This document shows positions 39,264-64,000 of a stretch of DNA of 64,000 nucleotides, one piece after another (the stretch's first letter is position 1; the number at the start of each line of letters is the position of its first letter). This DNA is from Heterodontus francisci (taxonomy: Eukaryota), in assembly GCF_036365525.1 (NCBI RefSeq), contig NC_090380.1, positions 82,469,658-82,533,657 on the forward strand, given 5' to 3'. Below the pieces are notes generated by a model that did not search any database, was not told the DNA's origin, and was given only the letters and a program-made list of their open reading frames with translations. The position numbers and the translations under genes were made by a program.

Positions 39264-39327
39264 ATGTTACTGCTGAGAAATCACGGTGTCCAGCTTCCTA
39301 TTTTACTGCTTATCCTTCTCAGTGCAG
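39264..39327 (+). CDS. Leader (signal peptide) exon of the IgSF receptor: MLLLRNHGVQLPILLLILLSA
   Basis: Acceptor tttcttttctatattttcAG ends at 39250; ATG at 39264; hydrophobic core; phase-1 donor GCAG|GTGAGG at 39328, in frame with the V exon (...LSA-V-KS/QNLT). Confidence 0.8.
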
Positions 39328-42300: not shown

Positions 42301-45300
42301 TGACCTCTATGGGCCAGCCAATTTTGTATCCAGACAGCCAACTTTCCCTGAATCCCATGCCTCCTTACTTTCTGAATGAGCCTACCATGGGGAACCTTAT
42401 TAAACGCCTTGCTAAAATCCATATACACCACATCCACTGCTCTTCCTTCATCAATGTGTTTTGTCACATCTTCAAAGAATTCAATAAGGCTTGTGAGGCA
42501 TGACCTGCCCCTTACAAAGCCATGCTGGCTGTCTCTAATCAAACCATGCTTTTCCAAATAATCATAAATCCTGTCTCTCAGAATCCTCTCCAATAATTTG
42601 CCCCCTACCAACATAAGACTGACTGGTCTATAATTCCCAGGGTTATCCCTATTCCCTTTCTTGAACAAGGGAACAACATTTACCACCCTCCAATCATCCG
42701 GTACTACTCCAGTGGACAGTGAAGACGCAAAGATCATCGCCAAAGGCGCAGCAATCTCTTCCCTCGCTTCCCATAATATCCTTGGGTATATCCCGTCTGG
42801 CCCCGGGGACTTATCTGTCCTCATATCATTCAAAATTTCCAGCACATCCTCCCTCTTAACCTCAACCTGTTCGAGCATATCAGCCTGTTTGACGCTGTCC
42901 TCACAAACTACCAGGTACCTCTTACTAGTGAATACTGAAGCAAAGTATTTATTTAGGACCTCCCCTACCTCCTCCGACTCCAGGCACAAGTTCCCTCCAC
43001 TATCCCTGATCAGCCCTACCCTCACTCTGGCCATCCTCTTGTTCCTCACATAAGTGTAGAACGCCTTGGGATTTTCCTTAATCCTACCCACCAAGACTTT
43101 TTCATGTCCCCTTCTAGCTCTCCTAAGTCCATTCTTCAGTTCCTTCCTGGCTACCTTGTAACCCTCTAGAGCCCTGTCTGATCCTTGCTTCCTCAACCTT
43201 AAGTAAGCTTCCTTCTTCCTCTTGACTAGCTGTTCCACATCTCTTGTCATCCAAGGTTCCTTCACCCTACCATCCCTTCCCTGCCTCATTGGGACAAACC
43301 TATCCAGCAGTCGCAGCAAGTGCTCCCTAAACAACCTCCACATTTCCGTCGTGCATTTCCCTGAGAACATCTGTTCCCAATTTATGCTCCCCAGTTCCTG
43401 CCTAATAGCATTGTAATTCCCCCTCCCCCAATTAAATATTTTCCCATCCCTTCTGCTCCTGTCCCTCTCCATGACTATAGTAAAGGTCAGGGAGTTGTGA
43501 TCACTATCACTGAAATGCTCTCCCACCGAGAGATCTGCCACCTGGCCTGGCTCGTTGCCAAGCACCAAGTCCAACATAGTCTCCCCTCTAGTCAGCCTAT
43601 CTACATATTGAGTCAGGAAACCTTCCTGGACACACCTGACAAAAACTGCTTCATTCAAACTATTTGCACTAAGGAGGTTCCAATCAATATTAGGGAAGTT
43701 GAAGTCACCCATGACAACAACCCTGTTACTTCTGCACCTTTCCAGAATCTGCCTCCCAATCTGTTCCTCCATGTCTCTGTTGCTAATGGGGGTCTATAGA
43801 AAACTCCCAATAAAGTGACTGCTCCTTTCCTGTTTCTGACTTCCACACATAATGACTCAGTAGACAAACCCTCCTCGACGACCTCCCTTTCTGCAGCTGT
43901 GATACTATCCCTGATTAACAATGCCACTCCCCCACCTCTTTTACCTCCCTCCCTATTCCTTTTGAAATGTCTAAACCCCGGAACATCCAACATCCATTCC
44001 TGCCCCTGTGATATCCACGTCTCCGTAATGGCCACAACATCGTAGCTCCAAGTACTGATCCATGCTCTAAGTTCATCACCCTTATTCCTGACACTTCTTG
44101 CGTTAAAATAGACACACTTCAACCCTTCATACTGGCTGCAACTTTGCCCTGTCAACTGTCTAACCTTCCTCACAGACTCTCTGCACTCGATATCTGCCTG
44201 TTCAACAGCTACCCCATCCACTGATCCGTGGCTCCAGTTCCCATCCCCCTGCCAAACTAGTTTAAACCCTCCCAAAGAGCTCTAGCAAACCTCCCGCCCA
44301 GGATATTGGTGTCCCTCCAGTTCAGATGCAACCCGTCCTTCTTGTACAGGTCCCAACTTCCCCAGAAGGTATCCCAATGATCCACATATCTGAATCCCTC
44401 CCTCCTACACCAGTTCTGTAGCCACGTGTTCAGCTGCACTCGCTCCCTGTTTCTAGCCTCACTAGCACGTGGCACCGGTAACAATCCTGAGATTACTACT
44501 CTGCTCGTCCTGCCTTTCAGCTTCCAACCTAACTCCCTATATTCGCTTTTCAGGTCCTCATCCCTTTTCCTAGCTATATCATTGGTACCAATATGTACTA
44601 CGACCTCTGGCTGCTCCCCCTCCCCCTTAAGAATCCTGTGGACTCGATCCGAGACATCCCTGACCCTGGCACCCGGGAGGCAACATACCATCCGGGAGTC
44701 TCGTTCGCGACCACAGAATCTCCTGTCTGTTCCTCTAACCATTGAATCTCCTATCACTATCGCTCTCCTATTCTCCCCCCTTCCCTTCTGAGCCACTGAG
44801 CCAGGCTCAATGCCAGAGACCTGGCCACTGTGGTTTTCCTCTGGTAGGCACCCCCCCGACCGTATTCAAAATGGTATACGTATTATTGAGGGGAACGGCC
44901 ACAGGGGATCCCTGCACTGTGCGCCTATTCCCTTTCCCTCCCCTGACGGTCACCCAGCTATCTTTATCCTGTAACTTAGGCGTCACTACTTCCCTGTAAC
45001 TGCTCGCTATCACCCCCTCAGCATCCTGAATGATCCGAAGTTCATCCAACTCCAGCTCCAGTTCCCTAACGCGGTCTGCGAGGAGCTGGAGTTGGGTGCA
45101 CTTCTCACAGGTGAAGTCAGCAGGGACACCAGTGGTGACCCTCACCTCCCACATCCTGCAAGAGGAGCATGCAACTGCCCTAGCTTCCATCCCCTCCGCA
45201 CTAAATTGACAACAGAGATTTAAAAAAAAGGAAAACCTTACCTTACCAAACCCTCCACACAAGAGTCCTTTTTTTTTGGTTAGAGGAGGAGGATGGGTGG

Positions 45301-48300
45301 GAGACATTACACATGTAGTGTTTCGGGGTTAGTCACTGCCCGAATATATAGGTTTACTTACCCAGCAGTCCCCGTGTCCGCCGAAACAAAAGATAAGTTA
45401 TTTTAAACTGAAACTCACCTTCCCAGCTGACACCTCGCTCGCACTATCGCTGCTTCAGAAAAAGCTGCTGAAACAAAAGGTAAGTTATTCTCAAGGTAAG
45501 TTTATTCTAAATTTTCTTTGGAAATGCGAATGTGCCGTTTCTGTAAAATTGACAGTGGCTGATTATCATTACTAGGACTGGATTTTATGCAGGAGGTGGG
45601 GCTCCCGGCACCGGGCCAAAAAGACAGGGGGAACCCAGCCTCTGCATTTTTTCTGACCCCCGGAGTAATCCTCTGGTCTTTTGGGGTCAAAGTTTAAGGA
45701 GACAGGATCCCCATCCCTTTAAACACTTTAATAGGGATGAGGATCCCACCTCCAAGAGCTGCCGGCCAATCAGAGGGCCAGCAGCTCAACAGTATGGGCA
45801 GCATCACCGGGAGCGATGGCCACTACCGGTACTGCAGAGGCCTCGGACCCAGGCCCAACGTTGGAAATCCGGACCTGAGGTAGGTGAGGCGGGGTCGCTG
45901 GAGCCGGACAAGGGGGATTTGGGGGGGCGTGGTCATTCGGTCCAAGGGGAGCGGGGTCCCAGGGGGGTACAGTGGTGCCTGTGGGTGACCTCTATGGGCC
46001 AAGAATTGCCCATGAAGGGGGGACGTAAGATCCCAGCGGCAGGAAGAGGCCCTTAATTGGATGTCAATAGGCCACTTAAGGGCCTCAATTGGCCTCTGGG
46101 TGGGAAGGCCGCGTCAGCCTATCCTGCTCCCAGAAAGAGTGCACCCAGCAATCCCAGTGTCAGGTTCCATGGTGGACGCTGCTGCTCCAATTCTCGGTCC
46201 CCCCACTGCCACCCACCCCCCCCCCCAACCACGGAACCTGACGTCAGGCTGGGAACAAAATCCAACTCCTAGTGTGTGATTTAGAACTCGTGCTAATTGC
46301 ACCAGAATTGTTATTTTAATAGCCCTCAAACTTTGCGATATTATTAACAACTCCAGGTAGAGATTTGAACAGGGGCAGGGAGCACATTAGTGCTGGGAGC
46401 ACAAAATCATGTTACCAAAGTAATGCAAACATTTTGATATAGAGAAAGAAATTTCATTTATACAGTAACGTACCATGTCTCTCAGAAATATTGCAAAGCA
46501 CAACATATATAATGAATTACATTGCGCAACCATTATTTTTATGGTTAAACATGACTGCTGTTTTACACTCAGCAAGTTCCCACAAACAACAGAGATGAAT
46601 GAATCTGGTTATTTTGATGGTGGTTGAGAGAGGAATACTGACCAGAATATTATCATCTCATCTTCATCTTTGGCCTCCTTGTCTCGAGAGACAATGGGTA
46701 AGCGCCTGGAGGTGGTCAGTGGTTTGTGAAGCAGCGCCTGGAGTGACTATAAAGGCCAATTCTAGAGTGGCAGACTCTTCCACAAGTGCTGCAGATAAAA
46801 TTGTTTGTCGGGGCTGTTACACAGTTGGCTCTCCCCTTGCGCTTCTGTCTTTTTTCCTGCCAACTGCTAAGTCTCTTCGACTCGCCACGCTTTAGCCCCG
46901 CCTTTATGTTTGCCCGCCAGCTCTGGCGATTGCTGGCAACTGACTCCCACGACTTGTGATCAATGTCACAGGACTTCATGTCGCGTTTACAGACGTCTTT
47001 AAAGCGGAGACAAGGACGGCCGGTGGGTCTGATACCAGTGTCGAGCTGGCTGTACAATGTATCCTCGGGGATCCTGCCATCTTCCATGCAGCTCACATGG
47101 CCAAGCCATCTCAGGCACCGCTGGGTATTCAATGGATTCACAAAAGAATTAGAAGAATATCATTGCTAAGAAACTCTTCTGGTAAACTGAAAAAAGACAA
47201 AAATGCCGTAAATAACTGAAATTACTCCGGGCTTTTCTTAAAAATGAATTTTCTAATCTTTGAAAGTTTAATTTTCAAAAGTAGAGTATTCTATGAATTT
47301 GGTGCTTTGTTTTGTGATGGTTTAATGGGGCAAACAGTGTTTCGGGGTACACTGTACAGTGCCCACTAGGTTTGTACCTGTGTGCCATTGTATAAGGTTA
47401 TACAACACTCCACAGGTTATACTGGTAGATTCATTTGGGGAGATTTTAACACTGCCCTCCTGATGGAAACAGGTGAGCTGACAGTTAAACTCACCCATGG
47501 GACTTACTCACCAAGATCTTCATGTGGGTTCTAATTTTAACCTGCTCTTCTGAGCAGACAAGAGAGACGTTTGCTGAAACCTGGTGGGGTCCTCCTTAAA
47601 TAGGCAATTCGGGTACTGATGATGCCATTGAGGCCCCACTGTGATTTTAACTAGAGGCTTGTACAGGGAAGTTGGTATTCTTGTTAGGCTAGTCTACCAG
47701 CAAGAGTAGGGGCCAGAAGAGGTCCAAAAACGAAGTCTTTTTAATTTTTTTGATTTCCTGGTGAGTCCAGGAGGAGCAGGAGCTCTCCTGCAATCCTGAA
47801 CTTCCAAAGATATTCTGGGCATTTAGTACCTGATTTCAAGAATATTAAGAGCATGTTGCATTCTCTTAGCAAACAAACATAAAATCAGCAGTGTGTGAAT
47901 ATTGGAGTGAAGTGATTACCATCAAAATGAACTGAACCTGGATTTTAAATGGGTTGATTTGTGATATGTGAGCAGGGTGATGGGTTGTTCATGTTAGATT
48001 TTCTGGATTAACTAATTATCATTTTTTTTTTGTTCCAAGTAAAAAGCCAAAACCTGACAGCTTCCCAGAGACCATCTGTGATCAAAGCATTAAAAGGACA
48101 GACAGTGAAGATAAACTGTTCATACAGCTATGAAAATGGAGAACAGTTGAGGATTAAATGGAAAAGAAAAGACAGTGCACAAGGGATTTGTGATTACACT
48201 TACAATAAAAATAATGCAAAATATACATTATGGCATTGTACAGGACATGCTAATATTACAGTGGACCTCTCAACAAACTCGTCATCTTTAATAATCTACG

Positions 48301-51300
48301 ATCTTCACTTAAATGACTCCACCATTTACATCTGTCAGGTTTCTATTGAAATACCTCCCCCTACACAAATAGCAGAAGGTAAAGGCACACGCCTCACAGT
48401 GGAAGGTGAGTTTAACATAGTGACGGCTCACGATGTAAATTGACACCAAAATTGAAAAGAAGGACTTGCTCTTACAACATTACAAAAAATATTTAATTGG
48501 CTCTGAAGTGCTTAAGAATGTCCTAAGATCCTGAAAGACACTATATACATGCAAGTTCTTTCTTTCTGTTTTGTTAGATGGCTCCAAGTTTGGGTTTTTA
48601 AACCATGCAGGTTAGAAGAAGAGAGGACTGTTGGGAAGTGTTTTAATCCAGGAGTGAGTTGTATCAATGAGATGGAAAAGAGAAAAGATTTGCTCATAGA
48701 GAAAGAATTTGAAGGTTCGAAGTATGAAAAAGATAGGTTATTTTTTCTTCTCAATAAATGTGAAAGAGATGCTGGAAGAGCCTCCTGAGATATTCGGGCA
48801 GGTGTTCAGGTTTAGAATGAATTTGGAGTCAGTACAGTTTTAAACATGGGGGAGAAATTGATCTGGGGCGGTAGTTCAAAATAAGCCTTGACACATTGGC
48901 AGCCCATTTTACACGCTGACCATTTATTTTAGGACAGCACTGGGTGGAGCATGCACAGCACATATTCTGCTCAGTATCAGCTGGTGGTCCCGCTGAAGAG
49001 AAAGAAAAGACTTGGACTTATGCAGAACCTTCCAGAGGAGATAGTGAATGTCAACAGAGGAAGGAAGAAAATTTATGTAGTGCTTGATCACATCCCAAAG
49101 TGCTTCACATCCAGTGGATTATTTTTCAAAGTGTTATCACTATTGTACATAGGCAAATACAGCAAGATCCCATAAATGACAGATAAGACGAGTAACCAAT
49201 TAATCAGTTTTTGATGGTATTAGTTGAGGAGGAGATGTTGACTAGGAAACCAGAAGAATTTACTGCTCTTCTTCACATAGTACAATGGGAATTTTACATC
49301 CGCTTGGATGGGCAGACAGGACCTTTACTGTGCCTCTGACAATGCAAGACTCCCTCAGCACTGCATTGACATGTTAGACTAAAACTATGTGGTCGTCCGG
49401 TAAGGGCTGGATTTTAAGCAGCCCTCGACGTTGGGGGTAGGGGGTGGGTGGGGGGGGGGGCGTAGCGACGGGGTGTTGGGGAGACCTGAAGATGGCTCCG
49501 GATGAGGTCTTCCATGGACCTCGACACTGGCAGGGCCCGGCCTGATCTTCTTGGTGGCAGCAAGACACCTTGGCAGCTTCCCCCGCTGCTCAGCGACGGG
49601 ACCACAATAGCCATATTCAAATTAATAAAATTAATGGATCTACACATACTTACCTCAGATCTTGAAGGTCCACCGGCACTCCTGCGCCTTCGGATCCCCA
49701 GTGGGGATGGGAGAGGAGGTAGGTTTATCAGTGAGGGGGCGTTGGGGGTGGGGGGAGCAGGGTCAAATAAACGTCATGGGTGTAGGGGATGGTGGGAAGG
49801 GTTGTACTTTAAACTTTGTACAGTTTGTGGGGGGGGGGTGGTGGTGGTTAAGGTCAGATGTTAAAGGTAAGTATTTTGGGAGGGGAAGAGCAAATAGTTA
49901 ATGTAATTATTATTGGGGGGGTGGAAGAGGAACAAAAGAAATGTATATATTTAATTTTATTCACTATGTCTTTAAATATTTAAATAAGCCATTAGGGCTG
50001 ACTGTACAGGCAGCTGACACCATTTGTGGGGACTGACAGCCCGCTGACTCCATGTGATTGGCGGGAGCGGGTCGCCCGACTATTTAACTAAGCTGCCGCG
50101 CTTAAGATCGCGGTAGTTCTTTGGCGTGCAGCCCGCCATTTTTTGAGCTCGCCACCAAAGAATCCAGCCCCTAGAGTGGGATTTGAATACACAACCTTCT
50201 GACTCAAAAATGAATGATTTGACTATGGATGGAGCCAAGGGTAAGAACCAATGATTTGTTGGACTTTGACAACTTAAAAGCTCAATACATTTATAACACT
50301 TTTAATTTTATAATTTTATGAAGTTTCTATCTCACAAGTCAGCATTTTTTCAATATGTTCCAGTAACAGAATTTACAAGGACAGGAAGCATATGCTGGAC
50401 AATCTATTTCACATCTTGAATAGACAGAGTATGCTTCAAAGACAATTTTTTCTCAGAATCAGTAGATCGCCAATAGATGACATGCTACATTCCATTATCG
50501 GCACAATAATCTAAAGCTCCACGTACTCAAGTGGGGGAAGAGGAATCACAGCAGCCATTTTGTGCATGTACTGGCCATGTAGTCTGCTGCTGTTTTGGTC
50601 ATTATTAATTTCATGATCACCATATTGTGCAAAATGATGCAGCTGCTCTCAGCTGAACTAAAAAGAAAATAACTAAAGTAAACCAACATATGTCGATACA
50701 TCAAGCTGGTAACATTAACGGTCTCCTCGTTAAAAGGAATAACATAAAGATGAACTAAAATTTTGACCTGGATTCACAGTTATTCCCATCAATAACATGT
50801 GGCTGAATTTTCCTGGCCCATTGGAGACAGGCTGGGAGGCGGGAGGGCTGGCAATATGGTGGGGAAAGGCATTGGGAGGGGAACCTGATATCTTCCTGCT
50901 GCCACGGCATATTGCCAGCAACGGGAACCTTAGAGGCATGGCCAACTGAACCACTTAATGGACAAATGAGGGCCATCTCCTGCCACGGTGAAAACCCACT
51001 GCTACGTGGGGAGACTGCCAGGTAAATGCTGGCAGCCTCCCAGCATGTTTGTAGGGGACTCCCTCTTTAACAGGTGCTTCACAACCCACAAATGCCCCCC
51101 CTGGCGGCAACAACCTCACCGCCCCAACAGCGCCACCGCACCCGCCCCCCCCCCCCACCCATCACTGGGGCCTGCCTGCCTGGCCTTGACTTCCCCAAAG
51201 ACACTTACATATCTTCGAGGGCGCCTTACCATTGAGGTGCCCTCATCCTATAGCCGCAGCCTCAGCACTGCCACTGCTTGTGGTGTGGCTGCTGAGGCTG

Positions 51301-54300
51301 CTTAGCTGCTGGCCCAGTCAGAGGGCCAGCAGCTCTTGGGGGTGGGCCACCATCCTCAATTGAATCATGGCCCCAGTGATGGCCTGTTACTTGGTCATTG
51401 CCGGCAAAATGTTGCCCCAGGTAAAGGCCTGCTACCCAATGGGACGTGTCAGTTTCGGGTCAGGTCGGGTTGCACGTCCGGGTCCAGCATTCAGGCTCGG
51501 GTCGGGCACGCTCTATCACAGGTAAGTGACTCCAATGTTAATTTAATTTTTGGACTAGAGAGGTGGTTTTGTTACAGTTATTTTTAGCTTGTGCAGATCA
51601 GCAACAAAGTGAAAAATGGAAGGTAAGTTAACTGATGGTCGGGTGGGGTCGGGTCAGGTGCGGGAAAAAATGGAAGGGCTCGGGTCGGGGTTTTTTTTGC
51701 AGACCTGAGCAGACCTTTAGCCCCAGGGTCCTGCCGCCCACTGGAGCAGGGTGTCTCCTGCTTTTGCCCCTGCGGCAGAACTTCAGCCTCCCCCGAAAAT
51801 TTCTGCCCTTGGTCGTGGGAACAGCCATTGCTACAAAGGGACCCCTTCATGGGCCATGGAGCACCCATTAAGAAGGGAGTCCCGCATGAACCAGCTGGGA
51901 GCCTGCCAGTATTTACCTGATGATCTCCCCACCTAGTGGCGGCCCCCCCCCACAATGGTGGGAGATGGCCCTCATTTGTCCATTAAGTGGTTCAATTGGC
52001 TATACCGCCAAGATACCCGCCACTGGCAATATGCCATGGCAGCAGGAAGATGTCGGGTACCCCTTCCAATGCCTACTTTAGCAGAATTGAGTGGATGCTG
52101 TCCCGGAATTAACCAAAATCCTTACAGGAGGTCCAAATCATTTTAGAAATCTGCTTTGGCTATTTATTTGATTGACATCTACTGATTGTGAATTCCCAGG
52201 TGAATGCACGTGAACAGTTATTGCAATTTAATCCAAAGATTGTTCACATCTCACTTCCAACCCTCCAAAAAAGCAGATTAACTTTGTGCCTGTGGTTGTT
52301 TTTTAACTCCAAAGTTTTAAGGATAATTTCTTAATTTTATCCATAATTAAATCAAATATGTTTAAATCTCTAAGGCCTAAAACTCCTTTTAGAAGAATCC
52401 AAGTATAGAAATACTTCAATCAAATTACCAATAGAAGCTGTTCACAACATTGTCCTAGGTGACAACTTCCAATCCAACCTCGAGTTGGTCTGTTTTTAAC
52501 TTTTTGTTTTAGAAAGTAAGGAGACAGATTTAAAGATGCTGAGACAGAGCCAGTGTCCATTCCAACCATAACCCTTGCCTGGTGTTGGTCCTCATCTTGA
52601 TACCTTCTTTATTAGACTGCATCAAGGAAATCAGCAATTTCAGTCATCGACCAACAGCAACACATGAAAGAGAGTGGAGTCCTGAGAAGCAAAAGGAATC
52701 AGGGGTATTCAGGCTAGGAGCAAACAGTAGTAATGGTGTTGGACTATGTCCTGGGACAAACCAGATAGCCTAGGAAATGCAACAAGGCCTTGGAAGAAAC
52801 AAGTGAAACAAGGGGGGGAGCCAGTCAGATCTTGTATCTGAGAATGCAGTGTGATGGCATTGGAGATTTTGATGAATGCCTGGGGAACTTAGTGCAACCT
52901 ATTGCAATTTTTTATTTCTGAAGTTGGCTTTTTAACACAGGTCTCAGAGTAAAACATAATGTAACGTTAATTAAACAGTTCCTAAATCTCACAAAGTAAC
53001 AGTTGAAGTAAGAGCAGAAAAAAATGACAGGCAGCATGAACAATGGAAATAAAAATTTTAATAGCATACTACAATTGATTTTCAGCGCCTCCAATCGTCC
53101 AGTTAAGAGCAGAGGCTCTACCTTACCCGAATGAAGGTATACAGCTAGTGTGCAATTCACTGGAGTTCTATCCTGGCAACATTCAAGTATCCTGGTTTGA
53201 AGATGGACAGCTAATCACCAATGGCACTGAGAATGGAAACCTCTATGCTAACAGTGACGGCTCATTCTCCATCACAAGTTTCCTGAATCTTTCTATATTG
53301 GACTGGAATGAAGGTGGAAATTATTCCTGTCAAGTGAACCATTCAACATTGTCTGTACCCATTACGCATCCTGTCAGTAACCTAGGTAAGAATTTGTTTT
53401 TATTTGTTCGTGGGATGTGTGCATTGCGAGAAAGACCTTATTTATTGCCCATTCCTAATTGCCCTCGAGAAGGTGGTGGTGACCCAACTCCTTGAACCAC
53501 AACTTTTCTATTAGGGCTTAATACAATTGAGTGTCTTGCTGGGCCATTTCAGAGGGCAGTTAAGAGCCAACCACATTGCTGTGTGTCTGGAGTCACATAT
53601 AGCCCAGGCAGGGTCAGGACAACAGATTTCCTTCCCTGAAGGACGTTAGTGAACCAGCTGTGTTTTTACAAAATCCAGTCATTTCACGATCATCATTACT
53701 GAGACTAGCTTTTTTATTCCAAAGTAATTAATTAAATTTAAATTTCCCCAGCTGTCACAGTGGGATTTGAACTTGTGTCCCTGGAGCATTAGCCCAGTTT
53801 CTGGATTACTAGTTCAGTAACATTATCACTAAGCTACCACCCCCTACAGAACGTAAGAGTGTGTTCTATAGTACAAATGTTTTTAAATATAATATCTTAT
53901 CAGTAAAATACATGATTGATTATTTGATGCTTTAGCTCCTGATTAGCGTCACTGCACAGCATAGTTTATCCTTTTCTTGGTGCTGAGCGAGAGAAATGAC
54001 TATGAAGACAATTGGAGAACTTCCTGTACTTCTTTGAATAGTGAGATCTTTAATGTTCACCTGAACAGGGGCTTTGGTTTAATGTCTCATCTAAAGATTG
54101 ATTTTGGCTCCCTCAGTGAAGTGTGAGCATAGATTGTGCACTCAGGTTCTGCCTGACTGAGGGTGCTACCAACTGAGCCAAGATGACATCAATAAAATCA
54201 ATTCCGTTGTAGCATTTCCGAAATACTCAAATATTTTCTATCCTGCAGGAAGGGAGTAAAACAGTTTTCTCAACAGTGCTCTCAAGGAAAGCAAAACAAT

Positions 54301-55882
54301 GCAACACTTATATTTGTAGTAATTCTTTATTGGTCATTATCTGTCCTTTAAGTTCTCCAAAGTTTCATCAGGGAAAACAATGCGAACTTTGCGTTCAAAA
54401 CTCAAATAAACTACAAGCAGAAGACAGCCATTCTCACAGATCCAAGTCTTGGCACCATGCTTTTATAATATTGAAGCTGAAGCTTTGAAACATTTCCAAA
54501 TCTCAATTATTTTCAACCATTGTATTCCTATACATATACTGCTGTGGAGAATGAATCTCACCCCAAAGATCCAAACCCAAATGCATACAGATTTTTTTCT
54601 ATTTTACACTACAAATCCAGTATTTACTACTTGTTTTTTCTTTCTTTCACTTCTTGCTTTCATTTCAACTTTTAATTTCTTTCCCTCAGTCGTTTCTATT
54701 TTGGTTCATTTCCTTATTCATTGTTTTTCTTTTCATTTTGTTTACCCAAGTTAGCTCGGCAGGTCTGCCTTTGCAATTTAAGTACTATCCTCCTACCACT
54801 AGGAGATGCTGACAGAAATTACAATGCGAGTGCAAGTACCCAACTTTGAGTGGCGATAAATGGGGCACCAACTGCTACAGATGTGAAAAGAATGGATTAA
54901 ATAGATATGTTTACACATCAGTGTATTTTTAGTTCAACCCAGATGAAAATTTGGAGAACTTAAATGACAGACAATGGCCAATAAAGAATTACTACAATTG
55001 TAAGTATTGCATTATTGAGTGAAGGAAATAAAAATCAATTATACCCATAATCTCTGCATTCAAATGTGTGTATTCTGGTAAAAAAAATTGGAGATGGAGA
55101 TCTCTATGGAACAATACTATTTCTATGTCTGTCTCTCGGTGGATAGTCATATGATGCCTTATCAATAACTCTTCACAGATAAAAGCAATGGCAAAAGTAT
55201 TAAATGGACAATAGTACTAAGAAGCATGACCCTTGCTGTGGCAACGCTACTTGTGATGGCAGCATTTGTTTTATATTTCAGACTTCAGGTAAGTATTCCC
55301 ACTTATTATCATTTTATGAAGCATGTGGTGTCTGCTGGGTCACTAAGTTTCTTCCATGACCAGTGGGCCACTGCATGAAATTTTAACTTACCCCATTTGT
55401 ACCATTTTATATTAACTTATTAAATTTTTGCTTTAGAGGAAACAACTCAGATTGCCAATTCCCTTCCCCAGATTTGTTTTGTGGTTTTTCTTCTTTCAGG
55501 GAGATATGTGTTTGTATTCCATTGGGATTAGGTTCTCCTAATCCCACAAATTCACCAACCTACTTAAAATAGGATGTCTGCTCTCCATATATCTGGTCTC
55601 CAGCAGTGTATTGAATAATCCCAGGTATGAAAAGCATCCCTATTCTCCCATCAGTCACCCATCGGCATGATAATTCATCATACTGAATAACGTCTTCAAA
55701 AGTGAACTAGATCAATAGGTCATCGTAAAAAGAGACAATCAAATGTCAAATACAAATCGGTCATCTTAGAATAATGTGTGTTACAACATTAGAGAGAGTT
55801 TTGGGGTTTGCCCTTCTTTGAGATTTTGAGGTGATTATTATTTCTTCAGGAGATTATAGAAACTAAAAGAAGCACACGATAA
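39264..55882 (+). CDS. Multi-exon non-rearranging Ig-superfamily receptor (leader-VJ-C1-TM-short tail); NKp30/CD28H-like V domain plus SIRP/tapasin/antigen-receptor-type C1 domain
   Basis: Four exons join in frame with GT-AG sites (intron phases 1,1,1,0) and give 280 aa without stops: signal peptide, V-set domain with J-like G strand, C1-set domain, TM helix. The last exon, and so the end coordinate, is uncertain. Confidence 0.85.
39531..39750. mobile_element. Penelope-like element end forming an inverted repeat, in the leader-V intron
   Basis: Arms of ~85-90 bp inverted about 39662; 14-bp TSD TGTAAGATGAATGT (39517-39530 and 39751-39764). Confidence 0.8.
39659..39697 (+). ncRNA. Minimal type I hammerhead ribozyme motif (Penelope-associated)
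   Basis: Stem I GAGTT/AACTC, core CTGATGA, stem II, GAAA, palindromic short stem III ATAT, cleavage-site U. Confidence 0.55.
40130..40435 (+). mobile_element. DeuSINE (SacSINE1/AmnSINE1-like)
   Basis: Deu core gtgccgtcgtttggatgagac...aaagatcccatagcact...gtgtcctggccaa. Confidence 0.65.
40813..41240 (+). mobile_element. L2 LINE 3' fragment
   Basis: FKILILVFKS motif, ctccttaaaacctacctcttt, tail gtgctatataaat; similar to 56935-57420. Confidence 0.7.
41346..44256 (-). pseudogene. CR1 ORF2 (endonuclease/reverse transcriptase), one frameshift near 43780 and an in-frame stop at 41643-41645
   Basis: ORF track pieces 43655-44275, 41643-43772 (709 aa) and 41346-41642 are collinear. Confidence 0.9.
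44257..45190 (-). pseudogene. CR1 ORF1 (esterase type), one frameshift near 44800-44850
   Basis: ORF track pieces 44807-45307 and 44257-44796. Confidence 0.85.
45575..46268. mobile_element. Harbinger-type MITE
   Basis: TIRs GGACTGGATTTT / AAAATCCAACTC; 3-bp TSD CTA. Confidence 0.7.
46660..47128 (-). mobile_element. RTE LINE 3' fragment, inserted in a DeuSINE
   Basis: LRWLGHVSCMEDGRIP...CSTCGRVCHSRIGLYSH; same family as 37312-38920. Confidence 0.85.
48040..48405 (+). CDS. Ig V-set exon with germline-joined J-like strand (VJ domain)
   Basis: Acceptor tttttgttccaAG ends at 48039; donor G|GTGAGT at 48406; 366 nt, phase 1/1. Canonical B-strand C, C-strand W, DSTIYIC, and GKGTRLTVE. Confidence 0.93.
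49404..50170. mobile_element. Harbinger-type MITE inserted in a minus-strand DeuSINE (~49065-50240)
   Basis: TIRs GGGCTGGATTTT / GAATCCAGCCC. Confidence 0.7.
50800..52125. mobile_element. Harbinger-type non-autonomous element(s)
   Basis: GGCTGAATTTT start, internal inverted similarity between the two ends, similarity to 1-205 and 10690-11100. Confidence 0.55.
53086..53385 (+). CDS. Ig C1-set exon
   Basis: Acceptor attttcAG ends at 53085; donor G|GTAAGA at 53386; 300 nt, phase 1/1. Motifs LVC...FYPGNIQVSW...NSDGSFS...YSCQVNH (C1 signature). Confidence 0.93.
53397..53843 (-). mobile_element. tRNA-derived SINE sharing both head and tail with the LINE at 526-10363
   Basis: The reverse complement matches 526-850 followed by ~10260-10363. 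Confidence 0.8.
55179..55288 (+). CDS. Stalk + transmembrane exon (DKSNGKSIKWTIVLRSMTLAVATLLVMAAFVLYFRLQ)
   Basis: Acceptor ctcttcacAG ends at 55178; donor CAG|GTAAGT at 55289; in frame with the C1 exon. Hydrophobic helix with an Arg near its N-terminal end. Confidence 0.85.
55850..55882 (+). CDS. Candidate terminal cytoplasmic exon (EIIETKRSTR*)
   Basis: Acceptor tatttcttcAG ends at 55849, phase 0, stop TAA at 55880-55882. Alternative exon starts exist at 55500 and 55860. Confidence 0.35.
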   Translation, partial: EIIETKRSTR

Positions 55883-56124
55883 TGTAAATTATACCCAATG
55901 AAACATCTTTGATTCCTGAATGGCCTTTTTCATTTTGTACTTTGTGTGGTATATATTCCTCCACTCACTAAAACTAGTAAAAAAGTCATGTGATGAAACT
56001 TACTCTATACTCAATAACCTTTTAAATAACAGCAGCAAACAGAGGAACGTATATCCCATTTGTTTATACATCTTGATTTCGAATCTTTGATTGTAGAGGA
56101 TGTTCAGAATTCCAAAGAAATAAA

Positions 56125-56545
56125 GAATAAACTTGCATTTATATAGCACCTTTCATGCCCTCAGATGTCTCGAAGCACTTTACAACCAATTGAGTACTTT
56201 TGAAGTCTAATCACTGTGCAATGTGGCAGCCAACTTTATCACAGCCAGGTCCCATAAGACAATGGCCAGCTAATCTGTTTTAGTGATGTTGGTTGAGGGA
56301 TAAATCTTAGCCAAGACGATGAGGAAAATCTCACTCCCTTCTTCGAATAATGAATCTTTTACGCCCACCTGAGAGAGCAGATGATGCCTTGCTTTAATGT
56401 CGAATCTGAAAGATGGCACCTCTAATAGTGCATCAGTACTACACTTAAGTGTTCGCCTAGACTACATGCTCAGGTTTCTAGAAAGGGGACTGAATCTTTG
56501 AACTTCAGATTCAGAGGTGAGAGTGCTACCACTGGCCCAAGGCAA
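56125..56545 (-). mobile_element. DeuSINE
   Basis: Reverse-complement similarity to 40130-40435; tRNA-like head. Confidence 0.65.
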
Positions 56546-56934
56546 ACACTTAATAAACAACACAGGGATAACGACAAATCCATTTTCTCAATTCCTACCT
56601 GTTCTGGTACAAGTTTTCCTACTATTTTAATTACTGTCCCAGTGATCTGCTCTAAAATAGACACTTACTGTAAAATAAAAGGATGACTTTTCACAAAGTG
56701 GGCCATAATTTGCTGTAGTAGGGAAGCTGACAGCATCTGCCATTAGTTAGATTTGCCCTTGCACACTCAGATACTTTTATTTTTTGCATGGCAAGTTGCT
56801 GAAAGTACGAGGGATATCAGGCACCTGGGACCAGAGTGACAGGAAAACCAACTGTGTGTCTCCTTAACCAATCAGACTGAAGGATTGTGAAATTAACAGT
56901 GCAAAGACAGAGAAGGAAGTGTGCATTGGAGTGG

Positions 56935-57420
56935 TTGAATACTCTACTGCCTATGTCATTACTCGCACCAAGTCTCATTCACCCATCGTTTCTGTGCTCA
57001 TTGACCTACATTGGCTCCCAGTTAAGCAATGGTTCAGTTTTAAAATTCTCATCCTTGTTTTCAAATCCCTCCATTTCTGCATCCCTCTCTATCTCTATAG
57101 TTTTCTCCAGCTTCACAACTCTCTGAGGAATCTGCACTCATCCAATTCTGGCCTCTTGAGCATCCCCGATTTTAATTGCTCCACCATTGGTGGCCATGTC
57201 TTCAGTTGCCAAGGCCCTAAGCTCTGGAATTCCCTCCCTAATCCTCTCCATCTCTGTACTTCTCCTTTTAGACACTCCATAAAACCTACCTCTTTGTCCA
57301 AACATTTGGCCATCTACCCTAATGTTTCTTTATGTTACTTAGTGTCAAATTTTAAAACTCCTGTGGAGCACCTTGGGGCATTTCATTACATTAAAGGTCC
57401 TATATAAATACAAGTTGTTA
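56935..57420 (+). mobile_element. L2 LINE 3' fragment
   Basis: SPIVSVLIDLHWLPVKQWFSFKILILVFKSL...GPKLWNSLP. Confidence 0.8.
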
Positions 57421-57959
57421 TTGAATTCAATGTCAAAACAGTTACAGAGAGACAAATAAAGAGAAGGAAAGAAAGATTGGATTAAGACGAGAAAAATAAG
57501 AGAAAGGAAAAGTTAAACAAATTTAAATTTAATATTTTACATTTTTTACACTTCCAGCAATTAAAACCTGAAGCAGTGAGACTCCAGACTTGTAATCGTA
57601 AATTTTCAGTACCAGAAATGTTGATTGGCAATAATTAACAATTCTTACATTGCTAAAAGGGTATTTAGACTTGAAATGACAAGACATAATTTTCAGCAGT
57701 GAGTTTAGTTTGTATCTTCTGCGTTATTACCACAACGTCACACTGTTCATTGCATTTGAGGCGTTATCTATTTCGCTGTGGAGTAGTCCCAAAATCTCTG
57801 AGGCTCCTCTGTTGTCAGTCATGTAGGTAAAGGTATTAAAGGAGATGCAAGTAGATGGAGGCAGACTATTTATTTAATCTCCCTGATAGAGGACAGTTAG
57901 AGATCTCCAGGAGTGAGAATTAAAGTCTATTGCAGGACGTCAGAGTTGGAGCATGGAGG

Positions 57960-58275
57960 ATCTGACCACACTAGAACTAGGGACACAGTTTCAAATGAAG
58001 GGGTCTCTCATTTAAGACAGAGATGAGGAGGAATTTTTTCTCTCAAAGGGTCGTTAGTGTTTGGAATTCTCTTCCCCAGCAAGCTGTGACGGCTGAGTCA
58101 TTGAATATATTCAAGGCTGAGTTAGACAGATTTTTGATTGACAAGGGAATCAAGGGTTAAGGGGGACATGCAGGAAAGTGGAGTTAAGGCCACAATCAGA
58201 TCAGCCATGATCTAATTGAATGGCGGAGCAGGCTCAAGGGGCCGAATGGCCTACTCCTGCTCCTATTTCTTTTGT
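57960..58275 (+). mobile_element. CR1 3' fragment
   Basis: RNFFSQRVVSVWNSLP and a CR1 tail ggccgaatggcctactcctgctcc. Confidence 0.75.
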
Positions 58276-58423
58276 TCATTATTGGAACCAGGAACATAAG
58301 TACATCAAGGGGTGGGGGGGGGGGGGGAACAGGGAAAGGAGAGGCATAAGAGATGGGGAGTGAAGAGCGGTGACAAAAAGGAGAAGGGAAAGATGATGGG
58401 GAAAGGGGAAAAGGGCAAGAGGA

Positions 58424-58840
58424 TTTTTTTTATTCTTTCATGGGATGTGGGCATCACTGGCACGACCAACATTTGTTGCCCATCCCTTATTGCACTTCAC
58501 AACTGATTGGCTTGCTAGGCCATTTCAGAGGGCATTTAAGAGTCAACCACATTGCTGTGGGTCTGAAGTCACATGTAGGCCAAACCAGGTAAGGATGGCA
58601 GATTTCCTTCCCTAAAGGATTTTAGTGAACCAGATGGGTTTTTACAACAATTGATGATAGTTTCATGGCACCATTACAGAGTCTAGCCTCCAATTCCATA
58701 TTTTTTTTTATTAATTGAATTTATCAACTGAATTTTAAACTCCACCAGTTACCATGGTGGGATTTGAACCCGTGTCCCCAGGGCATTAGCCTGGGCCACT
58801 GGATTACTAGTTCAGTGACATTACCTCTACATGACCTTCT
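58424..58840 (-). mobile_element. tRNA-derived SINE, same family as 53397-53843
   Basis: The reverse complement matches the head 526-850 joined to the LINE tail. Confidence 0.8.
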
Positions 58841-59097
58841 CTCTGGGTGTGGGATAGAAGTTGGAGTAAACAAATGAGAGTCAAAAGAAAGATGGAACTC
58901 AAAAATGCATTGAATAAATAAGTGGGTTTCATGAATTTAAAGTGGTACTAAACAGAATGAGAGGGAGCAGTACCAAATAAATTACTTAGAGTTGGCAATG
59001 GCACGGAAAATTAATTAAATAAATTTGGGAAATCTTGAAAAACATAATTAAATAAAGAGGTGGGGGTTAATGAATTAGAAGGTGTTTTACATACCAG

Positions 59098-59853
59098 GGG
59101 CCGGATTTTATTCCCGTCGGCGGGCGCAAAAAATGGCTGCCACGCCACCGCGATCCTGAGGGCGGCCACTCATTTAAATATGCAGGGCGGTTGCCCCGCC
59201 CCCAATCACATGGTGAGGGTGGTCTCAGGGCCACCGCAAATGGTGTCAGCTGTCTTTACGCAGGTGCTGGTGCCATTTTTAAAGGGCTGCCAGCCCTGCT
59301 CAGAGAATGCAGAGTTGAACTCGTACTCCCCCCACTACACCGAAAATAAATGTTTGGCCCGTCCCCCACCCTCAATACACTAGAATTGAAGAGTTGGCCT
59401 CTCTCCCCCCTCCCCCCACAACTGCACAAAGTGCAGAGGTCACCCCTTTCCCCCTCGCCCACACTAAAAGTGCAGACTTGACCCCATCCCCTACCACTAC
59501 ACTAAAAATACTCTGATTCCCCCCCTTCCCCAGCTCGGTGGTGCCAGCTTTCCTGGGCTGGAAAGTGAAGACACGAGTGCCGCCCATTGGACTGAAGATC
59601 CGGATCCAATGGTAAGATCGCGGGGAACTGGATTTAAATGTATGCATAAAATTAATTTTAATATTTAAAGTCATGTCCCATCGCCGAGCAGCAAGGGGGT
59701 GGGGGAGGGCAGTCTGCAATGGAACCTTGCCACTGCCGGGAAGATTGGGCCCGGCAATCCCAACACTGGCCTCCTTGGTGGGCTGCTGCCACTGTAATAT
59801 TCCAGCCCCTCCACCACAGATCCCAATGTTGGGAGCGCAACAAAATTCAGCCC
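59098..59853. mobile_element. Harbinger-type MITE
   Basis: TIRs GGGCCGGATTTT / AAAATTCAGCCC; 3-bp TSD CAG. Confidence 0.75.
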
Positions 59854-60249
59854 CAGGAAAATTAATTAAATAAAGTGCAGAGCTTCCATCAGGGAAATTA
59901 AGTAATTAAGCAGTGGGTCTCCACCTCCTTTAATACCTTTACCAACATGGCTGACACCACTGGTGCCTCAGAATCTTAGCTTGATCCACAGAGAAACCCA
60001 GTGTCTGTTGCCGGTAACTGAAATCAGCATAAAATAGCAGCCATTATCACCCAACTTTAACATTGAAACCATCCATCATAATGCCAGTTGTAACAGGTAC
60101 TGAGGTACACGTGGACACAGAGGTTGGCTGATACAGAAGTTTTCAATTCATTTTGAAACTGAATGTTGCAATTCCCCAACCAGAAATTCTAATATTTAAA
60201 ATGGCATAATTTATCAATGATTCTTTAATACATATATCTAATATGATTA

Positions 60250-60553
60250 AGCTCCAGCGACCCGGGTTCAGTTCTGGGTACTGCCTGTGTGGAGTTTGCA
60301 AGTTCTCCCTGTGTCTGCGTGGGTTTCCTCCGGGTGCTCCGGTTTCCTCCCACATGCCAAAGACTTGCAGGTTGATAGGTAAATTGGTCATTATAAATTG
60401 CCCCTAGTGTAGGTGGTAGGGAAAATATAGGGACAGGTGGGGATGTGGTAGGGAATATGGAATTAATGTAGGATTAGTATAAATGGGTGGTTGATGGTCG
60501 GCACAGACTCGGTGGGCCGAAGGGCCTGTTTCAGTGCTGTATCTATGACTCTA
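60250..60553 (+). mobile_element. HE1-type SINE, 5' truncated
   Basis: Reverse complement of the other HE1 copies. Confidence 0.85.
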
Positions 60554-63420
60554 TAACTACAGGGGCATCGCACTCCTTAGCGTCATGGGGAAGGCCTTTG
60601 CTGGGTCATACTTAAAAGACTCCATTTACTTGCAGACTGAGTGTACCCGGAAGCGCAGTGTGGATTGCATGCCAGCAGATCTATTGTGGATATGATCTTC
60701 TCCATGCACCAGCTACAAGAGAAGTGTAGGGAACAGAGTATACCCCTTTACCCTACTTTTGTAGATCTCACTAAGGTATTCGACACCATCAGCAGAGCAG
60801 GGCTCTACAAGATTTTGGGAAAAATTGGCTGTCCACTGAAGCTCCTCAGTCACATTTGCTCCTTCCATGACAACATGCACTGCACTGTGCAGTTTGATTG
60901 CTCTACTTCCAACAGTTTCAGAGTGAGGAATGGAGTGAAAGAACAGGGCTGTGTCCAAGCCCCCACTCTGTTCAGCACGTTCTTCCCCATGCTTCTGACT
61001 TTTGCCTTCCCTGAAGATATGGAAGGAGTCTACTTGCACACTAGGTCAGGTAGCAAGCTCTACAATCTATCAAGGCTCAAAGCGAAGACAAAAACACATC
61101 ACGCCCTGATCAGAGAACTCCTCTATGCTGATGATACTGCGCTAGTCGATCGCACGGAAACTCAGCTACAAAGACTCATGGACTGTCTCTCCTGTGACTG
61201 TAACCTGTTCTCCTTGACTATAAGCATCAAGAAAACTGTGGTCATGGGACAAGATGTTGCATCTCTAAATAACACCCCACTTGAAGTGGTTAGCAAATTC
61301 TGCTACCTTGGGTGACACATCATAGAACCAGAAAAGTTACAGCACAGAAAGTGGCCATTCAGCCCATTGTTTCGGCGCCGGCTGAAAAAACTAGCTGCCC
61401 ATTCTAATCCCACCTTCGAGCACCTGGTGCATAGCCTTGCTGGTTACAGAACTTCAGGTGTAGGTCCAGGTACCTTTTAAATGAGTTCCCTGTGGCTTTC
61501 CAAAGGGCTCAGTGTTGGGTCCCTTGCTGTTTGTGGTATATATTAATGATTTGGACTTAAATGTGAGAGGCATGATTGGAAAATTTGCAGATGACACAAA
61601 AATTGGCTGTGTAGTTGATCGTGAAGAGAATAGCTGTAGACGCCAGAATGATATCAATGGGCAGTGAATTCCAGACACCCACCACCCTTTGGATGAAAAG
61701 GTTTTTCCTCATGTTCCCTCTAATCCTTCTACCAATCATCTTAAATTTGTGCCCCCTGGTAATTGATCTCTCCGCTAGGGGAAACAGGTGCTTCCTGTCT
61801 ACTCTATCTAGGCCCCTCATAATTTTGTACACCTCTATTAAGTCACTCCTCAGCCTCCTCTGTTCTAAGGAAAACAACCCCAGCCAACCCAATCTTTCCT
61901 TATAGCTGCAATTTTTCAGCCCTGGCAACATTCTTGTAAGTCTCCTCTGTACTCTCTCCAGAGCAATTATGTCTTTCCTGTACTGTGATGACCAGAACTG
62001 TTCGCAATACTCCAGCTGTGGCCTAACCAGCATTTTATACAGTTCCAGCATTACATCCCTGCTTTTGTTTTCTATACCTTGGCCAATAAAGGAAGGCATT
62101 CCATATTCCTTCTTCACCACTTTATCTACCTGTCCTGCCACCTTCAGGGACCTGTGGACAAGCACTTCAAGGTCTCTCACTTCCTCTACCCCTCTCAATA
62201 TCCTCCCGTTTATTGTGTACCCCCTCGCTTTATTTGCCCTCCCCAAATCCATTATCTCACCCTTCTCCGGATTGAATTCCATTTGCCACATTTCCACCCA
62301 CTCAACCAAACCATTGATATCATTCTGGAGTCTACAGCTATTCTCTTCACGATCAACTACACAGCCAATTTTTGTGTCATCTGCAAATTTCCCAATCATG
62401 CCTCTCACATTTAAGTCCAAATCATTAATATATACCACAAACAGCAAGGGACCCAACACTGAGCCCTTTGGAAAGCCACAGGGAACCGCTTTCCATTCAC
62501 AAAAACATCCGTCAACCACTATCCTTTGTTTTCTGTCAATGAGCCAATTTTGGATCCAACTCGTCACATTCCCCTGTATCCTATGGGCTTTTACTTTTCT
62601 GACCAGTCTGCCATGTGGGACCTTAACAAATGCCTTACTAAAATCCATGTAGACAACATCCACTGCACTACCCTCATCAATTTACCTTGTTACTTCCTCA
62701 AAAAATTCAATTAAGTTAGTAAGACATGACTTGCGAAAAGCACATGGGATAACACCAAGCTGACCCTTAGGACCAAGCTATGGTTTATAAGGCCTGTGTT
62801 CTCAGCACCTTGCTGTATGGCTGTGAAACATGGGTGACTTACAGCCAGCAAGAAAAGAAGCTCAAAAGTTTCCATCTTCGCTGTTTGCTGTGAATTATGG
62901 GTATATCCTGGCAGGACAAAATCACAAATGCAGTCCTCTCAAGCATGTTGGCACTAACCAAACAAAGGCAGCTTTGGTGGATCGGACACTTCCGCAGGAT
63001 GGAAGATGGTTGCATACCCAAGGACCTTCAGTATGGTGAGGTAGCTGGGGCTACATGACCAATTGGGTGCGTAAAACTCCACTTCAAGGATGCTTGCAAG
63101 CGTGACAAGAAAGACCTAAATACCGACTTTCATACCTGGGAGTCACTAGCTGGCGAAAGAGGGAAATAACGATACATCCTGTGGACTGGTGTGCACTACC
63201 ACGATGACCAGTTGTTACAGCAGGTTGGCAACGGCTGCCAATGCCAAAAATGACCCATAGCCTCACTTGGCAGCTTCACATGCAGCACTTGTGGCAGCAC
63301 CTGCCTCTCAAAGATTGGCCTTCACAGCCATTAATAAAGGTGCACCAAGAGAAGAACACCCCACCTGAATGGATTGTTTGCTGTATGTCCACCATCTTTC
63401 GTAGATGGAAGGATGCCAAT
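60554..63420 (+). mobile_element. Degenerate RTE LINE interrupted by a minus-strand CR1 (~61320-62735)
   Basis: RTE RT ORF 60641-61315 (PEAQCG, LLYADD) resumes at ~62736; CR1 RT ORF 61557-62663. Confidence 0.85.
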
Positions 63421-63429
63421 TCTAATCTA

Positions 63430-63700
63430 TAAACATTTGGTAGCAGTGTTGCAGGTGCCTGGTGAGATCAGGAGACATATTACACTGCAACCCGGCCTGA
63501 ATCTCAAAGGCTATTGGTGTCTACTGCATGCTGTGCGACTTTGCCATCCAGAGAGGCCTAACATTGCATAAGCAGGGGATCCACCTACAGCTAATAACAG
63601 AGAAGGACCCCAACATTGGCCCAGAAGACGTCTGTACTGAAGCATGTTTGCAGACAGGAAAAGTTATGGAAGGAGCGCTCATAGACAAGACAATTACCTG
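63430..63700 (+). pseudogene. Harbinger transposase C-terminal remnant
   Basis: RCLVRSGDILH...YCMLCDFAIQRG resembles the HARBI1 consensus RCLD...CCMLHNFA. Confidence 0.5.
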
Positions 63701-64000
63701 AGATTGAACCACCCAATACACTCATACACCTGTCAATAATATGAAATTAGTGGTTTAGTATGAGACATTAAACCAAGACTCCATCTGCCCTCTCAGGTGA
63801 ATGTAAAAGTAATATCATACTATGAGATCTCAAACAAAGTCATGAAATTCAGTCTGGAACTTAATTTTAATCAATATGTAAGAGTAATGAGGCTCATAGC
63901 CTCACTCAGTCCCTCAAAATTGCCCACTGTAAATGGCAGCATGCAGTGACTCAGCCATGCAGTATCATACACCCGCTGTAGCATACCAAGATCTTCACCA

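What the first reader, a model, noticed from the sequence alone, without database searches (positions are those of the whole stretch)
55179..55288. NKp30-style arginine in the transmembrane helix suggests an activating receptor using an ITAM adaptor
Seen: the TM reads WTIVLRSMTLAVATLLVMAAFVLYF, with one Arg near the outer end. The stalk has no Cys, and every candidate tail is short. Established: NKp30/NKp46-type receptors use an N-proximal TM Arg to pair with CD3-zeta/FcR-gamma, whereas DAP12 partners such as SIRP-beta1 use a central Lys. Inference: this is an activating receptor combining an NKp30-like TM with a V-C1 ectodomain, whereas mammalian NKp30 has a single V domain.
Basis: partly seen in the sequence, partly recalled or inferred. 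Interest (0 to 1): 0.7.

Follow-up and report, generated by a model that had tools for sequence, protein, structure and literature searches.

The report
Activating shark CD28-like receptor beside HHLA2
This exon encodes the membrane anchor of a non-rearranging shark immune receptor; its arginine, kept in other sharks and a ray, likely makes it the activating member of a three-gene CD28-like family that sits next to a likely copy of the immune-checkpoint gene HHLA2, its possible ligand.

Summary
The exon is real: 55179-55288, canonical splice sites, one outer Arg (55220-55222), no stalk Cys. It belongs to a leader-VJ-C1-TM-tail gene whose tail exon starts 221 bases past the window end (43 cytoplasmic residues, no Tyr). 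The Arg sits at the same place in 5 of 5 other shark or ray models that have this exon. Two paralogues within 250 kb have uncharged membrane helices: B (V 63%, C1 75% identical) with one ITIM-like YSLL, and C with CD28H-type YxN motifs. So the likely reading is an activating partner in a paired family, signalling through CD3-zeta or FcR-gamma; that step is inferred, not shown. The NKp30 label is weak. The V domain carries the CD28H-family YxCQxxxEIPPP..GxG motif, and the locus is CIP2A - HHLA2-like - B - C - this gene - BBX (human 3q13), not the MHC. Neutral, YxxL-bearing members occur from chimaera to alligator, the range recalled for PRARP (paper not held). An outer Arg is ordinary; a CD28H-like V-C1 triad beside its likely B7 ligand is the interesting part. 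Caveat: the 19 residues after the Arg could span the membrane alone.

The parts
39264..39327 (+). Leader exon, coding part (ATG at 39264, GTGAGG donor)
   Evidence: tblastn matches to leaders of zebra shark, white shark and bamboo shark models; splices in frame
48040..48405 (+). Single-exon, germline-joined VJ domain with CD28H-type YxCQxxxEIPPP and GxG motifs and an extra Cys pair
   Evidence: Pfam V-set E 6.7e-14; motif as defined in PMC11599192; splice sites
53086..53385 (+). C1-set domain exon
   Evidence: Pfam C1-set E 2.4e-18; splice sites
55179..55288 (+). Stalk and transmembrane exon (the finding)
   Evidence: splice sites and frame; predicted helix over model residues 247-281
55220..55222 (+). 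Codon of the membrane arginine, 20 residues before the stop-transfer Arg
   Evidence: conserved in alignment A4
55289..64000 (+). Last coding intron, which runs out of the window; the cytoplasmic tail exon follows OUTSIDE the window at L045:279-401 (221 bases past the end; 40 residues, no Tyr, acidic DDEFExP motif)
   Evidence: homologous tail exon in 5 of 8 other putative orthologue models

Best explanation
The exon is the membrane segment of a non-rearranging VJ-C1 receptor that is likely the activating member of a three-gene CD28H-like family, and its outer arginine is predicted to pair with the membrane aspartates of a CD3-zeta or FcR-gamma dimer, whose ITAMs would signal for a tail that has no tyrosine. 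Shown: gene anatomy, Arg conservation, two neutral-TM paralogues with tyrosine motifs, a B7-type V-C-V gene next door, and a zeta/gamma-type adaptor exon with its Asp in the same genome. Inferred: the Arg-Asp pairing, activation, inhibition by paralogue B, and a B7-family ligand (most likely the neighbouring HHLA2-like protein) bound through the PPP loop.
For: Arg at the same column in 5 of 5 other models that have the TM exon: catshark, Mustelus, stingray and two bamboo sharks of one genus (names). Three more putative orthologue models (P0003, P0004, P0006) lack a usable TM exon and were not counted. Tail exon spliced directly to the TM exon in P0001, P0024 and P0173, with no YxxL/I/V/M motif. 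Of 22 rows scored, 11 have a helix uncharged except at its inner end, and 10 of these 11 carry a YxxL/I/V/M tail; 7 have an outer Arg (6 of this family plus a distant axolotl protein); 4 have no credible helix. Of 15 further rows, 11 have a credible helix, none with an outer Arg, all 11 with YxxL. Paralogue B: V 63%, C1 75%, neutral helix, tail AIYSLL. Paralogue C: neutral helix, tail with YVNF and YENT. Adaptor TM exon with Asp at C10:79.53 Mb, best PDB match CD3-zeta, E 3.4e-11. Arg-with-zeta/gamma and Lys-with-DAP12 rule: PMC6514059 and PMC6557307 passages.
Against: The 19 uncharged residues after the Arg are the best 19-residue hydrophobic window, so the Arg may be only an interface anchor. 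The NxxR motif of LRC-type FcR-gamma partners is absent: position -3 is Ile or Thr. The two bamboo shark models carry a second basic residue (Lys) near the inner end. The sawshark model ends in a YxxL (EVYNSL) and catshark has Tyr in the acidic motif, so some orthologues may signal directly. The catshark, Mustelus and stingray models do not join the TM exon to this tail exon. The stingray protein is not placed inside the Arg clade, which has 92/85 support. B's motif is non-canonical in this species (Ala at -2); the sevengill orthologue has canonical VIYSLL. All other-species Arg-type sequences are automatic gene models.
Confidence: 0.65

Rival explanations
1. The Arg is a topological or interface residue, or holds a non-ITAM partner such as a paralogue; the protein is a non-signalling decoy or adhesion form that competes with B and C for ligand.
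For: Nineteen uncharged residues follow the Arg and could span the bilayer alone; no NxxR motif; the tail has no known motif.
Against: Basic residues flanking a type I helix are expected on the inner side (established positive-inside rule). The outer Arg is fixed at one column across sharks and a ray and is preceded by 4-5 more mostly apolar residues. None of the 22 neutral-helix family rows has it.
Confidence: 0.2
2. The receptor signals mainly through its own tail (acidic DDE[F/Y]ExP motif, or a YxxL in some species), like other CD28-family members, with the Arg secondary.
For: The acidic motif is conserved in 5 of 8 other models; Tyr in catshark, terminal YxxL in sawshark.
Against: No Tyr at all in this genome's tail exon; no YxxL in bamboo sharks.
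Confidence: 0.1
3. It is a shark NKp30 (NCR3) family member that gained a C1 domain.
For: Single-exon VJ domain with GxG and an outer TM Arg; NKp30 is itself counted in the wider CD28 structural group (PMC6514059).
Against: CD28H-type EIPPP loop; locus between HHLA2-like and BBX rather than the MHC; closest kin are the neutral-TM V-C1 paralogues.
Confidence: 0.04

Closest known systems
CD28H/TMIGD2 and CD28HL1-3 (PMC11599192: text parts 2-4 of 6, supplements 1 and 4 read whole, all 9 supplements searched for 5 terms)
   Same: YxC[polar]xxxEIPPP followed by GxG in the V domain; 32% identity to the genome's CD28H-like V exon L005; paralogue C has the YxN tail typical of CD28H; CD28H's ligand is HHLA2 (PMC10173190 passages).
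   Different: Those have a single V domain, their own Tyr motifs and other synteny blocks. This gene has V plus C1, a charged helix and no Tyr. Its motifs EQLRI and LYFR and two orthologue accessions were not found in that paper's supplements.
PRARP (Fu et al. 2019, PMID 30770416; paper not held, only its citation seen; features recalled)
   Same: Non-rearranging VJ-C1-TM genes with ITIM/ITSM-like tails in bony fish, amphibians and reptiles (recalled); the family found here has that build and range.
   Different: PRARP is recalled with two Tyr motifs and no activating form; identity could not be checked by sequence or synteny; no bird protein among 13 hits.
NKp30/NCR3, NKp46, GPVI, FcalphaRI, activating LILRs (PMC6514059, PMC6557307 passages)
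   Same: Membrane Arg, tail without ITAM: the mechanism it likely works like.
   Different: Different ectodomain and locus; no NxxR motif; not MHC- or LRC-linked.
UrIg/UrIg2 (PMC12227049: part 1 of 8 and passages)
   Same: Non-rearranging VJ exon followed by C1-type domain in elasmobranchs; UrIg2 is the top PDB hit of the C1 exon.
   Different: They have 3-9 C1 domains and lie in the MHC or the antigen-receptor complex.

Membership tests
Activating receptors using CD3-zeta/FcR-gamma | Basic residue (Arg) in the outer part of the TM helix | tested here: met
   depth in the bilayer uncertain
Activating receptors using CD3-zeta/FcR-gamma | Tail without ITIM or ITAM | tested here: met
   genomic tail exon has no Tyr; no transcript seen
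Activating receptors using CD3-zeta/FcR-gamma | Physical, Arg-dependent association with the adaptor | not testable with these tools
   needs co-expression and co-precipitation
LRC-type FcR-gamma partners | NxxR motif in the TM | tested here: not met
   motif from PMC6557307; absent in all 6 rows of A4
NKp30/NCR3 | Single V ectodomain | tested here: not met
   V and C1 exons
NKp30/NCR3 | MHC linkage | tested here: not met
   flanks are CIP2A, a B7 V-C-V gene and BBX, a human 3q13 block; the MHC itself was not mapped in G000
NKp30/NCR3 | V domain groups with NCR3 sequences | tested here: inconclusive
   no named NCR3 sequence was available for the trees; NKp30 is not among the best 60 PDB rows shown of 228 and of 359, where CD28 and CTLA-4 appear below TCR-alpha
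CD28H/CD28HL subfamily | YxCxxxxEIP(PP) CDR3 loop with GxG | tested here: met
CD28H/CD28HL subfamily | Single extracellular V domain and cytoplasmic Tyr motif | tested here: not met
   C1 domain present; tail without Tyr
CD28H/CD28HL subfamily | One of the published synteny blocks | tested here: not met
   flanks here are none of the listed markers; prkab-type genes are on C23 and C8
CD28H/CD28HL subfamily | V domain clusters with CD28H-like genes | tested here: inconclusive
   deep forks open in the V tree
PRARP | Germline-joined VJ plus C1 plus TM (recalled) | tested here: met
PRARP | ITIM/ITSM-like tail (recalled: two motifs) | tested here: not met
   none in this gene; one motif in paralogue B and bony-vertebrate kin
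PRARP | Orthology to the chicken genes by sequence or synteny | not testable with these tools
   papers not held; no named PRARP sequence returned

The most novel reading that the evidence does not exclude
Sharks keep an ancient receptor-ligand cassette at the BBX-HHLA2 locus: three TCR-chain-shaped, non-rearranging CD28H-like receptors that read the neighbouring HHLA2 in three ways, through a zeta/gamma ITAM adaptor (this gene), an ITIM-like motif (B) and a GRB2-type YxN motif (C). This would be a CD28-family receptor wired to the TCR's own adaptor, and a forerunner of the activating/inhibitory HHLA2 pair that humans build from TMIGD2 and KIR3DL3.
Probability: 0.25. Interest if true: 0.8.

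Novelty: new variant of a known kind. Interest (0 to 1): 0.52.

Why it matters
An outer Arg in a short-tailed Ig receptor is a common design. What matters is where it occurs: in a non-rearranging V-C1 family with a CD28H-type binding loop, linked to its probable B7 ligand, with a likely inhibitory twin. If the adaptor and ligand predictions hold, the gene joins features of antigen receptors (VJ-C1, Arg-zeta coupling) and of co-stimulators (PPP loop, B7 ligand) in one germline molecule. That bears on the origin of both and is testable with simple transfection and binding assays.

Tried and rejected
Complex prediction of the TM segment with two copies of the adaptor TM: no answer, score 0.02 against a mark of 0.34, controls not folded; no evidence either way. 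RNA: no RNA holder listed; the three same-sample runs laid on the TM-to-tail stretch covered mainly repeats and no exon joint was among the rows shown. Fold searches returned generic Ig, TCR and B7-H6 chains and did not discriminate; the V-only model was weak, pLDDT 61. PDB search with the turtle V domain gave nothing under E 0.005. L011 could not be named as NCR3. CD47 profiles found nothing in G000 and rang in no control, so absence is not shown. IFT57 maps to C2. A DNA search with the TM exon found only itself. ESM Atlas gave unnamed or loosely named V-C1 clusters. Rejected: the NCBI model's first exon at 36311-36391, since a leader homologous to other sharks lies at 39264; intron read-through as the real tail, since a conserved tail exon exists; rearrangement, since V and J-like parts share one exon and the one heptamer in it is coding sequence. 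One search used exon ends off by one to three bases and gave a broken frame; corrected. Literature: of 10 searches, looked for this family; no listing named it (most hits were judged from the listing only), but seven look-ups for key papers (Fu 2019, Ohta 2019, Flajnik 2012, Dornburg 2022, Kinlein 2021 twice, Memmer 2016) were not held, so it may be in print.

Full report
Observation. The Arg codon is 55220-55222. The stalk of about ten residues has no Cys. The gene is leader (39264-39327), VJ exon (48040-48405, Pfam V-set E 6.7e-14), C1 exon (53086-53385, C1-set E 2.4e-18), TM exon, and a tail exon 221 bases beyond the window. The five exons splice into one open frame of 320 residues. A protein record identical over V, C1, TM and tail (P0001) is labelled Heterodontus francisci by its source but uses another first exon.

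Is the Arg in the membrane? It lies 20 residues before the inner basic residue in 4 of 4 proteins measured. The best 19-residue hydrophobic window begins right after it; the best 21-, 23- and 25-residue windows in this protein include it. The AlphaFold model has one helix over model residues 247-281. So the Arg is in the helix, at or near the outer leaflet. This does not prove a buried charge.

Conservation. Eight other putative orthologue models were found. Five contain the TM exon and all five have Arg in the same column: catshark, Mustelus, stingray and two Chiloscyllium species. Three (zebra shark, sawshark, white shark) lack a usable TM exon and say nothing. The tail exon with DDE[F/Y]ExP is in 5 of the 8 and is joined directly to the TM exon in the two bamboo shark models. 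It has no Tyr here. The sawshark version ends in YxxL and catshark has Tyr in the acidic motif, which counts against a purely adaptor-based reading in those species.

Paralogues. In 555 kb read around the gene, tblastn with nine queries found two more V-C1 genes of this family, both on the other strand. B (C10:82.28-82.31 Mb) is 63% identical in V and 75% in C1, has an uncharged helix and a tail with AIYSLL; its sevengill orthologue has canonical VIYSLL. C (82.43-82.46 Mb) is 35% identical in V, has an uncharged helix and a tail with YVNF and YENT, like the YxNx motif of CD28H. Beyond elasmobranchs the family reaches chimaera, sturgeon, gar, bowfin, conger, loach, lungfish, caecilian, turtles, tuatara and alligator. 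Of 22 rows, 11 have a neutral helix (10 with a YxxL/I/V/M tail), 7 an outer Arg and 4 no credible helix; of 15 more, 11 have a credible helix, none with outer Arg, all with YxxL. One of the 7 Arg rows is an axolotl V-C-V-C protein that falls elsewhere in the V tree. In the V+C1 tree the shark Arg-type genes form a clade (92/85), B with sevengill 95/82, C 100/100, bony vertebrates 97/94; the stingray protein is unresolved. The Arg form thus looks like an elasmobranch duplicate of a neutral, Tyr-bearing ancestor (inference; no root test run).

Family. The V domain ends in YICQVSIEIPPP..GKG, the motif given for CD28H, CD28HL1 and CD28HL2, with PPP typical of cartilaginous fish (PMC11599192). Four other genome loci with such loops (L004-L007) look like the published CD28H, CD28HL and CD28X genes; this gene is none of them and has a C1 domain that they are described as lacking. 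Its build and range match what I recall of PRARP; the paper is not held, so this is a lead at about 0.55.

Neighbourhood. Behind B lies a B7-type gene with V-C-V domains, the layout of HHLA2 (PMC10173190), although its best named hit is B7-H4. Beyond it is CIP2A; on the other side of this gene is BBX. BBX, HHLA2 and KIAA1524 (CIP2A; synonym recalled) share one human 3q13 domain (PMC8254995 passage), which supports HHLA2 orthology. This is not the MHC setting of NCR3. A CD3-zeta-like TM exon with its Asp lies 3 Mb away.

Mechanism. Established: Arg-bearing receptors pair with Asp of CD3-zeta or FcR-gamma, Lys-bearing ones with DAP12, and paired families combine such forms with ITIM forms. Inferred: this protein binds a B7 ligand through its PPP loop and signals through a zeta or gamma dimer, opposed by B. 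I put the activating-adaptor step at 0.65 and HHLA2 as ligand at about 0.35.

Earlier notes. After this analysis, two unreviewed notes on other genomes with a similar reading were listed. They are not independent support.

Verdict. Real and well supported as a conserved charged TM exon of a likely activating paired receptor; mislabelled as NKp30-like in lineage; a new variant of a known kind. Interest 0.52.

Noticed in passing
window 36311-36391 and 39264-39327: The public gene model P0001 starts with an exon at 36311 that does not look like a signal peptide; the leader homologous to other sharks is at 39264.
   Followed up: yes
G000:C10:72.64-72.82 Mb (L012, L056, L057, L061): Two near-identical, inverted non-rearranging V-C1 genes of another type flank a B7-like V exon at 72.78 Mb, near a mannosidase gene at 73.2 Mb: possibly a second V-C1 receptor beside a B7 gene (B7-H4 position recalled). 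Their TM exons were not settled.
   Followed up: partly
G000:C10:82.244-82.267 Mb (L036, L052, L064): B7-type V-C-V-TM gene, likely HHLA2, whose basking shark orthologue is named VTCN1-like.
   Followed up: partly
G000:C10 between BBX and HHLA2-like; G000:C2:151.9 Mb: The three receptors occupy the interval where human has CD47 and IFT57 (order recalled); IFT57 is on C2 here and CD47 was not detected.
   Followed up: partly
window 48040-48405: Extra Cys pair in the V domain (precursor C72, C88), kept in most family members; a second disulfide in CD28/CTLA-4 is recalled.
   Followed up: no
L045:279-305: Acidic DDE[F/Y]ExP motif at the start of the tail, conserved across sharks; function unexplained.
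   Followed up: no
L004, L005, L006, L007, L009, L010, L011: Other single-exon VJ genes in G000: CD28H-, CD28HL- and CD28X-like loops in L004-L007; L009-L011 unassigned.
   Followed up: partly
protein P0063 (axolotl): V-C-V-C receptor with PPP loops, an outer TM Arg and an 18-residue tail: perhaps an independent activating form.
   Followed up: no
window 37294-38634, 41646-43793, 61560-62681 and others: Long reverse-transcriptase-like frames of LINE-type elements (judged by eye) fill the introns and flanks.
   Followed up: no
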